A stretch of DNA of 64,000 nucleotides. It comes from Trypanosoma brucei. Lineage: Eukaryota. Each line of letters opens with the position of its first letter. Position 1 is the first letter of the stretch. The DNA lies in assembly GCA_000002445.1 (NCBI GenBank), contig CP000070.1, positions 1,632,001 to 1,696,000 on the forward strand, given 5' to 3'. Under the pieces are notes generated by a model. That model did no database searches. It saw only the letters and a program-made list of their open reading frames with translations, and was not told the DNA's origin. A program made the position numbers and the translations under genes. Positions 1-27,003 of the stretch are shown in pieces.

Positions 1-1332
1 CAACCTAACGGAATACCCTTCGGCTGCGGGGGCGATGCGGCTACCGCACACAAAGCCAATTACATGAGCATGATCTATGGACAATATTGCAATGCACAAC
101 AATATTTTTACTGCACTTTCGGTTCCAACCAGTTGTCTCCCGAAGTTCATCGCTGAAAGCTCTGGGTTGAACACAACATACCTCACCTATAACTTCTTAT
201 TCAATTAATCAAGAAGCCGTCTACTAATAACCCTCTTCATCTACCCCGCACATCGCGCTCATCAATGATACCGGAATAACATCACGTCAACACGTGATTT
301 GTTGGCCCAAGAAAGGGTATGATAATGTTATGCTTCTTCGCTGCAGGCATTACTCAAAAAAGCTTCAGTAAACATCACGACCCATCACACTTTCACCGCT
401 TTCGCTGCCCTCAGTATACTGCTCTCATCCACCACATATTCACCTAGAGGCCCTCACACGGTGACCGTTGGCCCCGCTATCTAAACCGATTTGTGTGCCA
501 TATCCCTCATTCCTAGTGCCTTCACCATTGGTGTCTACATTACTGGTGTTGTCAATCCCGTTAGATTCGTCTCCACCTGTACCCACAGCCGTTGTCCCCC
601 GATCGGTACTCAGCAACGGACTGCAAGCACTGAGGTTAGCAGAAACATCAAATACAATCTACCCACAATTACTATCCAACATATGACTGGCTTCACATCA
701 GTGAAAACAGTGACAAACTATGATATCACATTGGGCGACTAACAGAATCAGAGGGTGAAAACGAAATGAAGAAATCAATCGAAACATGGAAGTTAACACC
801 TAAGCAGAGGAACTTAGAGCCTACAATAAACAGAGAATCCCACAACACACACCCCAACAAACAGGCAAAACAGTAATGGGGCACACGGAAAAGAAACGAA
901 GCAACCTGCACGATATTAGGTGACAACAATCCAATAAGCCAACAGTGCTTCGGATCGTATACTGCCCACCCACACATACAAACACTCCTGGACTAACGAG
1001 AGGGAAAGGTAAGTGACCGGGAGCTGTTTGCCGGGCATGTGACATTAACGAAACGCACTGTTAGTCAGTAGTGTCGGTTTACAACAAGAGGGTAGCAGTA
1101 TATCAATGATGAAAGAAAATATTAAGTAAAGTTCAGGGAGAAATTCGTGTTAACTATCAATGCGTGAAACGCAACACGAAAATGAAAGCAAGCTACGCTG
1201 AGGTAACAATAATCTACATGGACATCAAAGAAAAAACATAAGTGTAAGATGGCACGCACCCGCACATGCATTGTAAGAAGTAACATCTTCCAAGTACATT
1301 GCCGCGAGCTGCCTCAGCAACATCAGGAGAGG

Positions 1333-4300
1333 CTAGAGGTCACCCTTCAGCGACGTAACCTCTACTGTGCTCCGCCGTGACAGGGCCTCAGACGCATCGG
1401 AGCTTGCTACAATACCAACCGACGCCAAATCACCGTTATCGCCAGGGTAATTGGATCTTGATAGCAAAGGCGAACGCAAATTTGCAATTCCAGCCAACGA
1501 AGGTTGGAGCACACACACACTGTCAGAAGTAGTTGACAAGTCCATGGAGGTACGTTTCCCCTTATGGTCTGTTATGTGGCCAACTTTCGCCGCTATACGG
1601 TGAACCGTGTCCCGGCAGTAGGCCTCAGACCATCCGCTGTTCTTGCGCAACAATGACACACGCCACCGTTCGCACAGAGGTAACAGCAGATTCTGCCGCT
1701 GGGCTGGTGCGAACACACCGAGCAGCGAATTCAGAGACGTTGCAACCTGCCTGGCAGAATCAGTTAACCCAGCACAAAGCGAACTCACCTCACTCAACGA
1801 GGGGCTCGAACCCTCATCGTCCAATCCAGGGCCATCGCGGTCCAGCCTCAGTGCAGCAAAAGTGCGACCGGGAATTGGGTTCAGCTGGTACATCTCCACA
1901 GGATTGGGAACACCGCGTAACGTTACAGGGCCCAGTGCAGTTACATCAAACTGCTCACGCTCTACCACACTCAGCGACATGTAGGTCGCACGTGTCATCA
2001 GCACTTGCCCGCCGTTCGCAACACTCTCTGTCCTTGCTGCCATATTCGCTGTCCGTCCATAGTAGTCATATCCCTTCGTCACCTCATCGTACCGGATGTC
2101 GCACAGTCCAGTGTGGATCCCAACACGCACACGCAGGCCACGCCATAGTCGGCCGTACACCTCACGGTCCAGATGTGCCGTCGGCGGAGTGTACCCTTCC
2201 TCTTCCTCGGCGCGCTGCAGTTCAAACTCACGGTATGACTCATCCAACGCAGCTGTCCCCCAATTGTGGTGCAAAAAGTTATGCTGCAAGTCACAAGCTA
2301 GACGCACAGCCGCAGAGGGGCTCCGGCACGCAATCATGAAGGAGTCCCCGACAGTCTTCACCTCGTAGCACCTGTAGTGCATAATCAACGCACGAATTAG
2401 CCGATGATGTGTCGCTACAGCGTCCGGCATCATCTCTGGGTGCGCCGCCCACTGTGCAGTACTGCTTTCGATATCTGTGAAGATGAGCGTCACGGGATCC
2501 GTTGGTTCCTTCGGTGCATTTGCGTTATCACGCGCATCCGCAAAATACCGACACAATACGACAACGATCACCACTACTAGAAGCAAAAAAAACAAAACGG
2601 CGCCCACACAAACACCAATCAACCGTGCCCCCGTCAGTCTCCCAGCGTCACGGTCCTCATACTGCAGCAGTTGAGAGATTGGTTCGGCAATCGGTGGGAC
2701 CGACGGATCCAGTGCACGTGCCATTGACCACACAGCAATACCTGTCGCACCGTAGTTTGTCACGCAGTCATTCCACAGACCCACCTCCACCTTGCCGCAT
2801 CCCTCTGTGCCATACGGGCCGTAGCGCATGTCATCAGCTCGCAAATAAGTCTCCGAAAAAAAGAGATTCGACAGAGTATCTGCGTCCACCTTCTTTAATT
2901 GCGGGAGAACCGTCCGCAGCAAGTTTCCGGCAGCAAACCCCATTAACGACAGTGGTGTCCACTTCGACTTATCCTTCATAGCATTGTGAAACTTTTTCAC
3001 AGTATCCGACGACGGGTTCGCATCAGCCCAGTGTGGAAGGTTTGTCGCGAACAGCAAACGGTTACTACTCGAGCTTCCAGGACCCTTATCCCTAAACACA
3101 CGGACAAACGTCTGGTAGTATAATGCCACCTCAGTAAAAGGGACGTAAACGAATAGCTTGGGGTTGGCGCTGAGGTGCTTCGCAATCACCTCGACGTCGT
3201 CCTGTTTGAGGCCTATGACAAACACGTCACCCTCGCGGGGAAGATAGCCTGTGACAGAGACGCTGGTTGTCAGTCTCACAGAACTATTGAGACCTCCTTC
3301 AAACCGCTGCAACACCAAATGTAAAAATCGATTAATATAATATGACTCGGAGCTGCTGATGACAGAGTGCACCCCTATTGAGCCCTTCTCTCCCAAATAC
3401 TTGGCGATCACAAACAGTTGCTGCTCCAGTGTGGCAGAGAGGTATATCACACGTTTGTTAGGTGTTCGGAGGCGAGGAACAAGAAGCACCGGATCAACAA
3501 CAACGAAGGTCGATGTGCTCAGTAACGCTTCATCCGTAACGCCCATGACAGCGGTCACAAGCTTTTCCTCCTCCTCACGTTTTAAACGCTTCCAAATGGT
3601 GCCTGAGCTTGTGTTGATCCTGTGCAAGAAGAATCTATCGTAATCTCCGAGATCCCCAGTGCCCACAAGGAGACTCGCACCTCCATGCCACTCCTCGGCC
3701 GCGTTCAGTGACAATTGACTGTTATCCATAAACGTGGCAACAGCTGCCAGCGGGGCATGAAGCCGGGACCCGTCCGTATCGCATCGAGATGTTCCCAACG
3801 CCATGAAACCACTCTTTACACTCTCCAGCCGAAAGCCCTCCACGAGCCTTTTCATGTATACTGCCTTACCACCCTGGTTACATTGACACGAAGCACCTAG
3901 TGCAGCGACATTATCGGGGCAATCACCACCATAATCTCCATACACAAGATCATCAATTACGTAACGCCGTTGATTGTACAGAGACTTTTTGAACGTTGAA
4001 CGGTTCTTCAGCCACTCACGGGAGCTCAGCGCCCGCGACAGCATTTCACCGATAATCCACCCATACACCATCAGCTCACCATCATCATCATCCGTCAGAT
4101 GACGATCAGACCTACCATAAAGTGATGCTCCGGAATGAGAAGCAAGGTACGCTTTCATCTCCTTCTGAAAACGTTGGATCGCTTGATACTCATTATCCTT
4201 GGCGAGTGGGTTCGTTCCCGTGGTGATCACCTGGCCATCAAAGTTACGAAACCCCTCATAATATTTCTTTTTAAATGTTTCGACAACAAAATACTGTATT

Positions 4301-25280: not shown

Positions 25281-25351
25281 GAGCTTAAGCCGCAGACGCA
25301 GATACCTTAGTCAACAAGGGAGTAAAATAAAATTGGGAGGAAAAACAATTA
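25281..25351 (-). promoter_or_regulatory. Polypyrimidine tract and AG acceptor upstream of copy 4
   Basis: Same as above. Confidence 0.4.
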
Positions 25352-27003
25352 AAGGCTACCTGTTCCACAGTGTTCGAGCAACAGCAATGCACACGAAAGC
25401 AAAAGGAAGGGAGGATAGCATGGCACCAGTATGGAGTATGCCAAATGAAGAGATACACGCCAACTTAGAGAATAGTAGGATATATGGCATGGTATAGTCG
25501 GAGTCAAGGGGAAAGCACAGCACGACACAGACTCGACGCCACACGTCACTCAGCTTGCTAGCACCCTTACACGTTATTATGTTCAACATTGTGAGTGTTA
25601 TGTGACTCTTTGGGATCGGAGAAGTGAGGGAATTATAATTCAACTGCTTTCGATGTGGATGAACGGATGAAAGACGTAATTAAATTATTATATGCCTTTA
25701 CATTTTTGTAATTGCATGCCGCTTTATGTTAATTATTGTAATTTTCGTACACGGAGGCGAAGAAGTATGTATGTCTTTGTAACTTTTTCTTAAACAAACA
25801 GTTGTAGCAGAGTTTGATTTTGTTAACGTTTACTTCCATTTTCATGGTGCCCGTAGCCGTTATTCCGCTGTTTTTCAAACTGCGAGATGGAACATGTTTC
25901 TTTGACCGTCAGCGCCCGCTCCACATTGTATTTAGTGTAATTTTATGCACCAACTCAACGTCGCTACTTCATTTAACATTAACTCATTTGGGGGTGCCCG
26001 CTGAGCCGGTGTACAACCACCAGGCTATTGATTTTTGTGTTGTTGTTAAGTCCTTTACCTCGTGAGAAACGTGCGATCCCGGTGAGGCCTGCACTTCACA
26101 CTTTTTTTTTTTTGGAGCGTCCACAACGATGGTAGAATTTTTTTTCTAATAGTTACCACCATTTCCCAAATAGCCGTCTGGTAATAGGCGTAGTGAAGCA
26201 AAACTTTCGTTAGTCTCTCGCTACTTTACTCCTACGTCACTGGATTCTGTCCCTCCATGTGGTGAAGCTGACACGGTATGCATCATCCACGCAGCACGTG
26301 TGCTCTGTTATCGGTGTTACCTTATTATTGTCTTTCTTACTCCCCCATTTCTACCATGTTTTATCAACCCAATAAACTGCACAGTTGTAACTTTAGACCT
26401 CCCTCCCATCCACCGACGGAAACAACGTGAGCACGGCAGTTTGGCCCTACTGGTGCCGGTGCCGGTGCCGCAAATGGTTTTCGCTTCCTTTCACGTTACG
26501 CGGCAGGTGGTGAGAATTATTGTAGTTGGAGTGGCGAAAAGAATAGGGACACTGATGTGCAACATTGCCTCACATACGCCACCACCTCACCACACACAAC
26601 ACAGAGAAAGGGTTAAAAGAAAACAAAAGATACAAGGCTGCGTCAGCTGCTAGCGCCTTCGACGCTGAAACCAAGTCCTTCTTTGGCGGTGTCGTAACTA
26701 CAAAACTAAGCGAATTCAGAAATAAAGAGGGAGAGAGAGATAAAATAAATACCTCAGTTGACGCGGGCGAATTGGCATATCGGTTGACTCCCGATCTCTA
26801 ATGTGTCCCAAGCAGTGAAAGAGAGGAAATAAATCAACAAGTTACTCTGTATAAACAGGGAGGGAACAAGAAAGTTTGTAAGTGGATGGTGTCTTTGTTG
26901 TAGATTCCTCTCCTCTCTTTCTCCTACTTATACCACCTATTCCCCTTCAACAGGTACTCACTTATTACCTCTTAAGCTACCGTATTAAGACCCCCTTCGA
27001 AGC

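What the first reader, a model, noticed from the sequence alone, without database searches (positions are those of the whole stretch)
1..25570. Four or more near-identical 6.55 kb adenylate cyclase repeat units whose copies are segmental mosaics
The four receptor adenylate cyclase genes are almost identical, apart from scattered point differences, across the transmembrane and catalytic domains and across the intergenic DNA. They differ sharply in four discrete patches, and each patch exists in exactly two allelic forms. The first patch is extracellular aa 37-135 (copy 1 coded about 4740-5040): CDNAEEEINVEVFSLLYNRYSSIK... against SWNWRGSVTVEVFS...SVVSNGTVKALNTG. Copy 4 is CDNAEEEI at the front and then the other allele. 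The second is aa 225-300 (copy 1 coded about 4240-4470): FALPIVDGKK...FKKKYYEGFRNFDGQ against YVYPVDDGKK...LNATYGRGGGYSHGE. The third is aa 600-640 (copy 1 coded about 3240-3340): SESYYINRFLHLVLQRFEGGLNSSVRLTT in copies 1 and 3 against SESNRIEKVVNMSLVRFYQEPQSLVILNA in copies 2 and 4. The fourth is the cytoplasmic C-terminal 100 aa, where copy 3 alone differs (14448-14760). The allele combinations are 1=AAAA, 2=BBBA, 3=B'BAB and 4=(A/B)BBA. That is the signature of repeated short-tract gene conversion shuffling a small number of cassettes among array members. It would diversify the ligand-binding ectodomain combinatorially while concerted evolution keeps the signalling domain constant. An intergenic indel variant (1040-1100 and 7590-7650 against 14150-14215 and 20700-20765) groups units 1+2 against 3+4, which disagrees with the coding patches. 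That is further evidence of reticulate exchange.
Basis: seen in the sequence. Interest (0 to 1): 0.65.

Follow-up and report, generated by a model that had tools for sequence, protein, structure and literature searches.

The report
Mosaic adenylate cyclase gene array
This is the known chromosome 7 tandem array of receptor adenylate cyclase (GRESAG4) genes of Trypanosoma brucei; the copies are nearly identical except for a few old, sharply bounded two-form segments reassorted by gene conversion, a pattern published for this very array in 2007 and 2010.

Summary
The window is T. brucei TREU927 chromosome 7. It carries four head-to-tail units of about 6.55 kb, each with a GRESAG4-type receptor adenylate cyclase gene on the minus strand. 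A fifth copy lies left of the window.

- **Patchiness:** 93% of variable coding sites fall in patches covering about 25% of the CDS (34% against 0.8% variable).
- **Reticulation:** three mutually incompatible copy groupings each form a spatial run (p<1e-4).
- **Age:** patch alleles are old (dS 0.18-1.06) while the spacers have dS of 0.005 or less.
- **Other genomes:** the same alleles occur at 96-100% identity in T. b. gambiense and T. equiperdum, in different combinations.
- **Donors:** none found outside the array.

The mechanism is concerted evolution with segmental gene conversion. Jackson 2007 (array "Tb62", Fig. 4) and Jackson et al. 2010 (Table 2) already reported this for this array.

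dN/dS is 0.4-0.5 in the two large ectodomain patches. About 73% of the ectodomain is as homogenised as the catalytic domain. Dimorphic patches also lie in the cytoplasmic tail and the 3'UTR.

Long-range allele phase could still be partly an assembly artefact.

The parts
1..6556 (-). Repeat unit 1 (3' intergenic, copy 1 gene, 5' intergenic)
   Evidence: Direct repeat families with spacing 6557/6559/6549. MAFFT alignment of the four units.
6557..13115 (-). Repeat unit 2
13116..19664 (-). Repeat unit 3
19665..25600 (-). Repeat unit 4, first in the direction of transcription. Homology to the other units ends at about 25556-25600, the upstream boundary of the array.
   Evidence: Identity to unit 3 drops from 100% to 34-71% (about 50% on average) beyond 25556. 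The same unique 5' flank lies upstream of equiperdum copy 1.
1333..5142 (-). Copy 1 CDS, 1269 aa, AAZ12669. The 'A-type' gene: A allele at every patch.
   Evidence: Pfam: PBP-like domains at 104-309 and 461-828, cyclase at 878-1088.
7890..11702 (-). Copy 2 CDS, 1270 aa, AAZ12670. Alleles B,B,B in the ectodomain, A in the C-terminal tail, A in the 3'UTR.
14448..18251 (-). Copy 3 CDS, 1267 aa, AAZ12671. Alleles B,B,A in the ectodomain, B in the C-terminal tail, B in the 3'UTR.
21761..25273 (-). Copy 4 CDS as it now reads, 1170 aa, AAZ12672. Alleles A-then-B, B, B in the ectodomain. Truncated 29 residues or more before the C-terminal patch.
21761..21763 (-). Premature stop in copy 4: TGA where copies 1-3 have TGG (Trp).
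   Evidence: Plus strand reads TCA against CCA at the aligned position in the other three units.
21078..21575 (-). RIME-like non-LTR retroposon, 498 bp, inserted in the former 3' coding region of copy 4. It replaces 25 bp of target.
   Evidence: A run of 11 A at the 3' end and a Pr77-type 5' end starting CCCTGGC. Absent at the same site in gambiense 12812 and in the equiperdum copies.
4743..5034 (-). Patch P1 in copy 1 (aa 37-134; sub-patches P1a 4993-5034, P1b 4977-4992, P1c 4743-4976). Equivalent positions: 11303-11594, 17852-18143, 24874-25165.
   Evidence: A against B identity is 52% (P1a) and 62% (P1c). Copy 4 is 98% A in P1a and 95-97% B in P1c. dS 1.06, dN/dS 0.41.
4228..4477 (-). Patch P2 in copy 1 (aa 223-305). 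Equivalent positions: 10788-11037, 17337-17586, 24359-24608.
   Evidence: Copy 1 is 76-77% identical to the others, which are 99-100% alike. dS 0.44, dN/dS 0.51. Equiperdum copy 2 is A in P2a and B in P2b.
3253..3347 (-). Patch P3 in copy 1 (aa 600-631). Equivalent positions: 9810-9904, 16362-16456, 23384-23478.
   Evidence: Copies 1 and 3 are 100% alike. Copies 2 and 4 are 96% alike. A against B is 51-53%. The split is abab, 43-45 sites.
14528..14721 (-). C-terminal tail patch P4b in copy 3 (B allele, 6-nt shorter). Equivalent positions: 1413-1612, 7970-8169; in copy 4 the equivalent is 21576-21743, where it meets the RIME insertion.
   Evidence: Copy 3 is 75% identical to copies 1 and 2. The same B allele is in the fifth copy, in gambiense 12811 and in equiperdum copies 2 and 3. 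dS 0.18.
1040..1144 (-). 3'UTR/intergenic dimorphic patch, 190-290 nt downstream of the stop codon. Equivalent positions: 7597-7701, 14156-14259, 20705-20808.
   Evidence: Units 1 and 2 are identical, units 3 and 4 are identical, and the two forms are 74% alike with a 1-nt indel. The split is aabb, 27 sites.

Best explanation
What it is. The region is the chromosome 7 tandem array of GRESAG4-family receptor-type adenylate cyclase genes of T. brucei TREU927. By position these are most likely Tb927.7.6050-6080 plus one more copy to the left. Jackson called this array 'Tb62'.

How it works. The array evolves in concert. Frequent intra-array gene conversion, and probably unequal crossing-over, has made coding and intergenic DNA 99.5-100% identical between units. 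Five short segments have escaped homogenisation and persist as two deeply diverged forms. Three are in the extracellular periplasmic-binding-protein-like domains, one is in the cytoplasmic C-terminal tail, and one is in the 3'UTR. These forms are relics of an old split between an 'A-type' and a 'B-type' gene. Conversion tracts that start and end in the identical spacers, or in short conserved stretches inside a patch, carry whole patch alleles from one copy to another. This produces mosaic copies.

Shown here: the patchiness, the age of the alleles, the incompatible groupings, and the sharing of alleles across genomes.

Inferred: that the exchange is conversion rather than reciprocal crossover, and the reason the patches persist. 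Persistence could come from rejection of mismatched heteroduplex, from selection for two receptor forms, or from both.

Copy 4 is now a truncated gene, and probably a decaying one.
For: Identity of the locus.
- Exact protein matches to TREU927 chromosome 7 entries AAZ12669-AAZ12672, with the neighbouring gene eIF3a matching AAZ12673.
- Domain architecture of two PBP-like domains, a transmembrane segment and a class III cyclase.
- The catalytic domain matches the solved GRESAG4.1 and GRESAG4.3 structures at E=1e-119 or better.

Homogenised background against patches.
- 0.8% variable sites outside patches against 34% inside.
- Spacer dS is 0-0.005 against patch dS of 0.18-1.06.

Reticulation.
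- 99 informative sites fall into three incompatible splits arranged in 7 runs. There are 6 adjacent incompatibilities against 62 expected; none of 10,000 permutations was as low.
- Recombinant junctions lie within tens of nucleotides: P1a(A)/P1c(B) in copy 4, the fifth copy, gambiense 12812 and equiperdum copy 1; P2a(A)/P2b(B) in equiperdum copy 2.

Alleles across genomes. Patch alleles are 96-100% identical across TREU927, DAL972 and IVM-t1. The ten DNA-aligned copies show nine distinct combinations.

Origin within the array.
- The best non-array paralogue is only 30-52% identical in the patches. A and B are each other's closest relatives in P1, P2 and P4.
- The patches are collinear homologous sequence. 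They are not frameshifted or inverted.

Published agreement.
- Jackson 2007 reports conversion events for Tb62 at 120-450 bp, across the stop codon and in the 3'UTR.
- Jackson et al. 2010 report PHI p<0.001 and 12 GARD breakpoints for this array in the two subspecies.
Against: - The identical spacers between patches (about 880 bp between P2 and P3, about 1400 bp between P3 and P4) are longer than Sanger reads, which I take to be roughly 600-800 bp. Long-range allele combinations in TREU927 and DAL972 could therefore include phasing errors.
- The DAL972 locus has 201 N and an array-end flank in mid-array.
- The equiperdum assembly rests on MiSeq reads plus only 7,508 PacBio reads and was scaffolded on TREU927.
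- Patch dS values differ (1.06, 0.44, 0.61, 0.18). A single ancient split followed by one wave of homogenisation does not predict that.
- Donors in subtelomeric pseudogenes or in unsequenced strains could not be searched.
Confidence: 0.85

Rival explanations
1. Adaptive cassette shuffling. Selection maintains both forms of each ectodomain patch and favours new combinations, so the array works as a small combinatorial generator of receptor specificities while the signalling domain is held constant.
For: - The ectodomain patches coincide with the least conserved regions of the whole family: median identity to paralogues is 23-33%, against 42-58% in the constant ectodomain segments.
- Both forms persist in all three genomes although the flanks are homogenised to dS of 0.005 or less.
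- A complete A-type ectodomain is kept in each genome: copy 1, gambiense 12811 and equiperdum copy 3.
- dN/dS is about 1.2 in P3.
Against: - dN/dS is 0.41 and 0.51 in the two large ectodomain patches.
- Equally sharp dimorphism occurs in the cytoplasmic tail and the 3'UTR.
- Mosaics are generic to 31 of 35 variable T. brucei arrays.
- Few distinct recombinants exist, and several are shared between subspecies, so exchange is slow rather than a diversity generator.
- The ligands are unknown.
Confidence: 0.2
2. Assembly or phasing artefact. The dimorphic patches are real, but the particular long-range combinations come from mis-joining reads across identical spacers, or from merging the two homologous chromosomes of a diploid.
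For: - Spacers 99.6-100% identical over 880-1400 bp.
- Gaps and a misplaced array-end flank in DAL972.
- Low long-read coverage in IVM-t1.
Against: - Junctions within 20-50 nt (P1a/P1c, P2a/P2b) cannot be read-joining errors. They recur in independently sequenced genomes.
- Scattered private substitutions link distant patches in copy 4 and the fifth copy.
Confidence: 0.12
3. Ectopic import. One form of each patch was copied in from a GRESAG4/ESAG4 paralogue outside the array.
For: - Patch dS values differ from one another, as would follow from donors at different distances.
- P3 forms are no closer to each other (33% aa) than to other paralogues (33-40%).
Against: - No non-array protein exceeds 41% identity over P1, P2 or P3, or 52% over P4. 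The search covered 63 full-length family members, including the TREU927, DAL972 and T. congolense paralogues.
- Jackson 2007 found ectopic conversion very rare among T. brucei arrays.
Confidence: 0.05
4. Local hypermutation or positive selection in place, without recombination.
For: The differences sit in regions that vary across the family.
Against: - Synonymous divergence is raised as much as non-synonymous divergence.
- Identical alleles are shared by different subsets of copies in incompatible patterns.
Confidence: 0.02

Closest known systems
Array 'Tb62' (adenylate cyclase, Tb927.7.6080) in Jackson 2007, BMC Evol Biol 7:54, Fig. 4, and in Jackson et al. 2010, PLoS NTD 4:e658, Table 2
   Same: It is the same locus. 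The papers describe five T. b. brucei copies and four T. b. gambiense copies, and 'allelic gene conversion' detected by SISCAN and RETICULATE. Their events at 120-450 bp, across the stop codon and in the 3'UTR correspond to P1, P4 and the UTR patch here. They report PHI p<0.001 and 12 GARD breakpoints.
   Different: The passages I read do not spell out four things described here: the two-form nature of each patch, patches P2 and P3, the synonymous-site age of the alleles, and the RIME insertion and stop codon in copy 4. These are refinements, not a new phenomenon.
Other T. brucei tandem arrays with sequence mosaics (ISG65, BARP, amino acid transporters, other GRESAG4 arrays on chromosomes 4, 6 and 8)
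   Same: Head-to-tail units, concerted evolution, subspecies-specific recombinant copies. 31 of 35 variable arrays test positive for recombination.
   Different: Here the contrast is extreme: spacers are essentially identical while patches are 25-48% diverged at the nucleotide level.
Segmental gene conversion that builds mosaic VSG genes in T. brucei
   Same: Short homologous tracts copied between family members produce chimeric surface-protein genes in the same organism.
   Different: VSG mosaics arise from a large silent archive copied into one expression site during infection. I base that description on my own knowledge. Here nothing shows a silent donor archive, directional copying or a high switching rate. 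The recombinants are few and some predate the subspecies split.
Population-genetic models of islands of divergence between duplicated genes under gene conversion (Innan; Teshima and Innan), cited from memory
   Same: Sharp islands of high divergence flanked by homogenised sequence, as expected when selection or mismatch rejection opposes conversion locally.
   Different: Selection has not been demonstrated here. One island is in a UTR.
Gene conversion among receptor adenylate cyclases of Leishmania donovani (Rogozin et al. 2020, cited in Durante et al. 2020)
   Same: The same protein family, and a repertoire suggested to be shaped by gene conversion.
   Different: A different genus and different loci. 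I did not read that paper.

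Membership tests
Trypanosomatid receptor-type adenylate cyclase (ESAG4/GRESAG4) | Class III cyclase catalytic domain on the cytoplasmic side | tested here: met
   PF00211 at aa 878-1088, E=9e-40. Matches 1FX2 and 1FX4 (GRESAG4.1 and 4.3) at E=1e-119 and 4e-116, roughly 80% identical.
Trypanosomatid receptor-type adenylate cyclase (ESAG4/GRESAG4) | Large extracellular region with periplasmic-binding-protein-like domains, then one transmembrane segment | tested here: met
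   PF25495 at aa 167-309, PF25493 at aa 461-828 and PF13458 at aa 104-258. A hydrophobic stretch LIGVCVGAVLFFLLLVVVIVVVL lies before the catalytic domain.
Trypanosomatid receptor-type adenylate cyclase (ESAG4/GRESAG4) | Annotated family member in a T. brucei genome | tested here: met
Tandem array under concerted evolution with gene-conversion mosaics | Head-to-tail units near-identical in coding and non-coding DNA | tested here: met
   Spacing 6557/6559/6549. 97.6-100% identity in all non-patch segments (99.2% or more apart from four short segments), intergenic DNA included.
Tandem array under concerted evolution with gene-conversion mosaics | Different segments support incompatible relationships among copies | tested here: met
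   aabb, abab and abba sites lie in separate runs. 6 adjacent incompatibilities against 62 expected, 0 of 10,000 permutations as low.
Tandem array under concerted evolution with gene-conversion mosaics | The same segments occur in other combinations in related genomes | tested here: met
   DAL972 and IVM-t1 copies carry the same alleles at 96-100% identity in different combinations. Caveat: assembly quality.
Tandem array under concerted evolution with gene-conversion mosaics | Exchange is non-reciprocal (conversion rather than crossover) | not testable with these tools
   Static sequences cannot separate conversion from double crossover. Jackson 2007 judged 69 of 76 events across arrays to be non-reciprocal.
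Programmed cassette diversification (VSG-type segmental conversion) | A silent donor archive and a dedicated expression site, with directional copying | tested here: not met
   All copies lie in one array on the same strand. No outside donor was found.
Programmed cassette diversification (VSG-type segmental conversion) | High-frequency switching under diversifying selection | tested here: inconclusive
   dN/dS is 0.41 and 0.51 in P1 and P2, and 1.2-1.4 on few sites in P3 and P4. Several recombinants are shared between subspecies, which implies slow turnover. No rate could be measured.
RIME (short non-autonomous ingi-related retroposon) | About 500 bp, a 5' Pr77 hallmark and a 3' poly(A) | tested here: met
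   498 bp. The 5' end reads CCCTGGCGATGCCGGCCACCTCAACGTGG..., and L1Tc Pr77 starts CCCTGGC and is shared with RIME/ingi. The element ends in A11.
RIME (short non-autonomous ingi-related retroposon) | Flanking target-site duplication (usually 12 bp; from memory) | tested here: not met
   There is no duplication. 25 bp of target are missing, and 10 nt of microhomology sit at the 5' junction.

The most novel reading that the evidence does not exclude
Selection keeps the dimorphic segments as independent functional modules. Two ligand-sensing variants exist in each extracellular lobe, two cytoplasmic tails may direct different flagellar localisation or partner binding, and two 3'UTR elements may give different stage regulation. 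Conversion within the array then reassorts sensing, targeting and expression modules, so strains differ in receptor repertoire without gaining or losing genes.
Probability: 0.12. Interest if true: 0.45.

Novelty: already known. Interest (0 to 1): 0.15.

Why it matters
Receptor adenylate cyclases are the largest family of candidate environmental sensors on the trypanosome flagellum, and they have been linked to host immune modulation and to social motility. How their extracellular domains diversify therefore bears on host-parasite interaction.

For this locus the central point was already published in 2007 and 2010: concerted evolution with gene-conversion mosaics, differing between subspecies.

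This check adds four smaller results:
- a base-level map of the five dimorphic segments;
- evidence that the segments are old (dS up to about 1), with no demonstrable positive selection;
- no identifiable outside donor;
- the finding that the first copy in TREU927 is truncated and carries a strain-specific retroposon.

It also gives a practical warning. Allele phase across 0.9-1.4 kb of identical spacer cannot be trusted in the older assemblies.

Tried and rejected
- **DNA of the fifth TREU927 copy (AAZ12668).** I tried to fetch it by exact-protein look-up and it is not on record. Only its protein could be used.
- **Compensated frameshift or inversion as the cause of the divergent peptides.** Rejected. 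In-register nucleotide identity is 46-75%, against about 25-30% for most shifts (two exceptions reach 50% and 55%, the latter matching the 6-nt indel in P4b) and 20-30% for the reverse complement.
- **Ectopic donors among 63 full-length family proteins.** None found. A nucleotide search of trypanosome genomes was not possible, because the genome collections offered hold only bacteria, archaea, viruses and metagenomes.
- **Rfam scan of the retroposon region for an HDV-like ribozyme.** Only a chance miRNA-model hit at E=0.25.
- **Jackson 2007 supplementary tables.** A search for 'Tb62' found nothing in the text held.
- **MAFFT --auto on the family.** It timed out. I reran it with a faster setting.
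- **Identity with GRESAG4.1 or GRESAG4.3.** Rejected. The catalytic domain is only about 80% identical to 1FX2 and 1FX4.
- **The equiperdum assembly as a long-read control for phase.** Downgraded after reading how it was built.
- **Structure prediction.** Not run. The tool returns no coordinates for mapping patches onto a surface, so it could not have tested the ligand-binding claim.

Full report
**1. What the window is**

The four long minus-strand ORFs are at 1333-5142, 7890-11702, 14448-18251 and 21761-25273. They match, residue for residue, four consecutive GenBank proteins of Trypanosoma brucei brucei TREU927 chromosome 7, AAZ12669 to AAZ12672. [quoted passage not shown] The next ORF, 27004-29292, is eIF3a (AAZ12673).

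A further member, AAZ12668, sits in the same 90% cluster. By accession order it lies just left of the window, so 'four or more' is correct: the array has five copies. Pfam finds two periplasmic-binding-protein-like regions (aa 104-309 and 461-828) and a class III cyclase domain (aa 878-1088). The catalytic domain matches the solved GRESAG4.1 and GRESAG4.3 structures at about 80% identity. The array is therefore a different family member from those two.

**2. The observation**

Repeat finding gives unit spacings of 6557, 6559 and 6549 bp. I aligned the four units.

- Among the four coding sequences, 314 sites vary. Of these, 292 lie in four patches that make up about a quarter of the CDS: 34% variable inside, 0.8% outside.
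- The index of dispersion of differences in 60-nt bins is 18.5. Permuted data give 0.9, with a maximum of 1.55 in 2000 permutations. 32 of 61 bins have no difference at all.

| Patch | Copy 1 coordinates | Grouping |
|---|---|---|
| P1 | 4743-5034 | copy 1 against 2, 3, 4; copy 4 reverts to the copy 1 form in the first 42 nt (25124-25165) |
| P2 | 4228-4477 | copy 1 against the rest |
| P3 | 3253-3347 | copies 1+3 against 2+4 |
| C-terminal | 14528-14721 in copy 3 | copy 3 alone differs |
| 3'UTR | 1040-1144 | units 1+2 against 3+4 |

Three corrections apply.

- 'Exactly two forms' is approximate. A 16-nt stretch (P1b) has three forms, and the B alleles have sub-variants at 95-98% identity.
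- Copy 3's C-terminal form is not private. The fifth copy and the gambiense and equiperdum copies also have it.
- Copy 4 is damaged, as described in section 8.

**3. Is it recombination?**

With four sequences there are three possible informative splits. All three occur, and each occupies its own stretch:

- aabb at 1040-1144 (27 sites);
- abab at 1731-3346 (45 sites);
- abba at 4999-5033 (19 sites).

Only 6 adjacent informative-site pairs are incompatible, against 62 expected. None of 10,000 permutations was as low.

**4. How old are the patch alleles, and where do they come from?**

Nei-Gojobori estimates between the two forms are as follows.

| Patch | dS | dN/dS |
|---|---|---|
| P1 | 1.06 | 0.41 |
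| P2 | 0.44 | 0.51 |
| P3 | 0.61 | 1.22 |
| C-terminal | 0.18 | 1.38 |

The spacers between patches have dS of 0-0.005. The two forms are therefore ancient relative to their surroundings, and synonymous sites are as diverged as replacement sites. This is old divergence, not a recent burst of adaptive change.

The forms are collinear homologues. They are not compensated frameshifts or inversions.

I compared each form with 63 full-length family members retrieved. No outside protein exceeds 41% identity in P1, P2 or P3, or 52% in the C-terminal patch. The A and B forms are 45%, 65%, 33% and 58% identical to each other. No ectopic donor is visible. In three of the four patches the two forms are each other's nearest relatives. 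The patches coincide with the least conserved parts of the protein family-wide.

**5. Other genomes**

I fetched the orthologous loci from T. b. gambiense DAL972 (L001, L003) and T. equiperdum IVM-t1 (L002). I then painted ten copies at the DNA level. Every patch allele recurs at 96-100% identity, but the combinations differ.

| Copy | Ectodomain | C-terminal tail | 3'UTR | Note |
|---|---|---|---|---|
| TREU927 copy 1 | all A | A | A | penultimate copy |
| gambiense 12811, equiperdum copy 3 | all A | B | B | followed by a unique array-end flank |
| TREU927 copy 2 | B, with P3 = B | A | A | |
| gambiense 12810 | B, with P3 = A | A | A | differs from copy 2 only at P3 |
| equiperdum copy 2 | B, with P2a = A and P2b = B | B | A | |

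The P1a(A)/P1c(B) junction of copy 4 is present in four copies: copy 4, the fifth TREU927 copy, gambiense 12812 and equiperdum copy 1. That recombinant therefore predates the split of these lineages.

**6. Caveat on phase**

The spacers between patches are essentially identical over about 880 bp (P2 to P3) and about 1400 bp (P3 to the C-terminal region). That is longer than the Sanger reads behind TREU927 and DAL972, which I take to be roughly 600-800 bp.

- The DAL972 locus contains 201 N and an array-end flank in the middle of the array.
- The IVM-t1 draft combined MiSeq reads with only 7,508 PacBio reads and was scaffolded on TREU927.

Some long-range combinations may therefore be mis-phased. 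The short-range junctions lie within 20-50 nt and recur in several genomes, so they cannot be artefacts of this kind.

**7. Prior art**

Jackson 2007 (BMC Evol Biol 7:54) analysed this array as 'Tb62 (adenylate cyclase, Tb927.7.6080)', and Figure 4 of that paper is devoted to it. He reports three significant conversion events:

- one at 120-450 bp, spanning the start region;
- one spanning the stop codon;
- one wholly in the 3'UTR.

These correspond to P1, the C-terminal patch and the UTR patch here.

Jackson et al. [quoted passage not shown] It lists array 62 with 5 brucei and 4 gambiense copies, PHI 0.062 observed against 0.501 expected (p<0.001), and 12 GARD breakpoints. It found mosaics in 31 of 35 variable arrays. 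The phenomenon, the locus and the cross-subspecies comparison are all published.

**8.

Copy 4 reads TGA at 21761-21763 where the other copies have TGG. Its product therefore stops at residue 1170.

About 185 nt further downstream in the old reading frame sits a 498-bp insertion at 21078-21575, in gene orientation.

- It has a Pr77-type 5' end (CCCTGGCGATGCCGGCCACCTCAACGTGG...) and an A11 tail. L1Tc Pr77 begins CCCTGGC and is shared with T. brucei RIME/ingi. This is a RIME-like retroposon.
- It replaces 25 bp of target rather than duplicating it.
- The target and the element share 10 nt (CCCTGGCGAT) at the 5' junction.
- It is absent from gambiense 12812 and from all the equiperdum copies, so it is recent and strain-specific.
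- The gambiense positional orthologue is also C-terminally truncated, at 1199 aa, but by a different lesion.

**9. Interpretation**

The best-supported account is concerted evolution with segmental gene conversion. An old A-type/B-type pair, with the B-type later amplified, has been homogenised almost everywhere. Five short islands of deep divergence remain and are moved between copies as whole segments.

Why the islands persist is inference. Recombination in T. brucei depends on homology and is restrained by mismatch repair. I state this from my own knowledge of work by McCulloch and colleagues and did not check it here. On that basis tracts should tend to end at island borders. Selection for two receptor forms may add to this.

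The adaptive 'combinatorial ectodomain' idea is weak as stated, for these reasons:

- dN/dS is below 1 in the two large ectodomain patches.
- About three quarters of the ectodomain is as uniform as the catalytic domain.
- The cytoplasmic tail and the UTR show the same pattern.
- Mosaics are a general property of T. brucei arrays.

**10. Verdict**

The mechanism is supported but already known. The functional claim is unsupported. Novelty: already known. Interest: low.

Noticed in passing
window 21078-21575 (minus strand): A 498-bp RIME-like retroposon sits in the old 3' coding region of copy 4. It has no target-site duplication. 25 bp of target are deleted, and 10 nt of microhomology (CCCTGGCGAT) lie at the 5' junction. 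It is absent at this site in gambiense and equiperdum.
   Followed up: yes
window 21761-21763: A TGG-to-TGA nonsense change truncates copy 4 at 1170 aa. The gambiense positional orthologue (CBH12812, 1199 aa) is truncated nearby by a different lesion. The first copy of the array seems prone to decay at its 3' end.
   Followed up: partly
window 33290-39000: A second tandem array with a period of about 1.5 kb (spacings 1505/1501/1498). ORFs of 214-219 aa and 188 aa alternate on the minus strand. It probably corresponds to Jackson's arrays 62ai and 62aii (Tb927.7.6110 and Tb927.7.6120).
   Followed up: partly
L001 (DAL972 chromosome 7), about 8000-9000, upstream of the gene at 10001: Gambiense 12811 is followed by a 3' flank identical to the array-end flank after equiperdum copy 3. 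Then come 201 N and divergent DNA before gambiense 12810. The order of copies in the DAL972 assembly is probably wrong.
   Followed up: partly
Proteins P0006 (copy 4) and P0008 (fifth copy, left of the window): These two non-adjacent copies share private residues V17A, R184C, A531V and V794L across at least 2.3 kb of coding sequence. That implies one long shared tract or a recent duplication linking the two ends of the array.
   Followed up: partly
L002 (equiperdum IVM-t1) 2831-6638 and 9384-13186: Two of the three equiperdum copies are split into overlapping ORFs by frameshifts. These could be sequencing errors in a low-coverage hybrid assembly or real pseudogenes. I did not resolve this.
   Followed up: no
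window 4977-4992 and equivalents (P1b): A 16-nt stretch has three forms, encoding LLYN, LLHK and PPPE. The LLHK form looks like an A-like island inside B sequence in copy 3, a micro-mosaic on a scale of a few codons.
   Followed up: partly
window 27004-29292 (minus strand): A single-copy eIF3a gene lies immediately upstream of the array. Array homology ends at about 25556-25600, roughly 300 nt upstream of the copy 4 start codon.
   Followed up: yes
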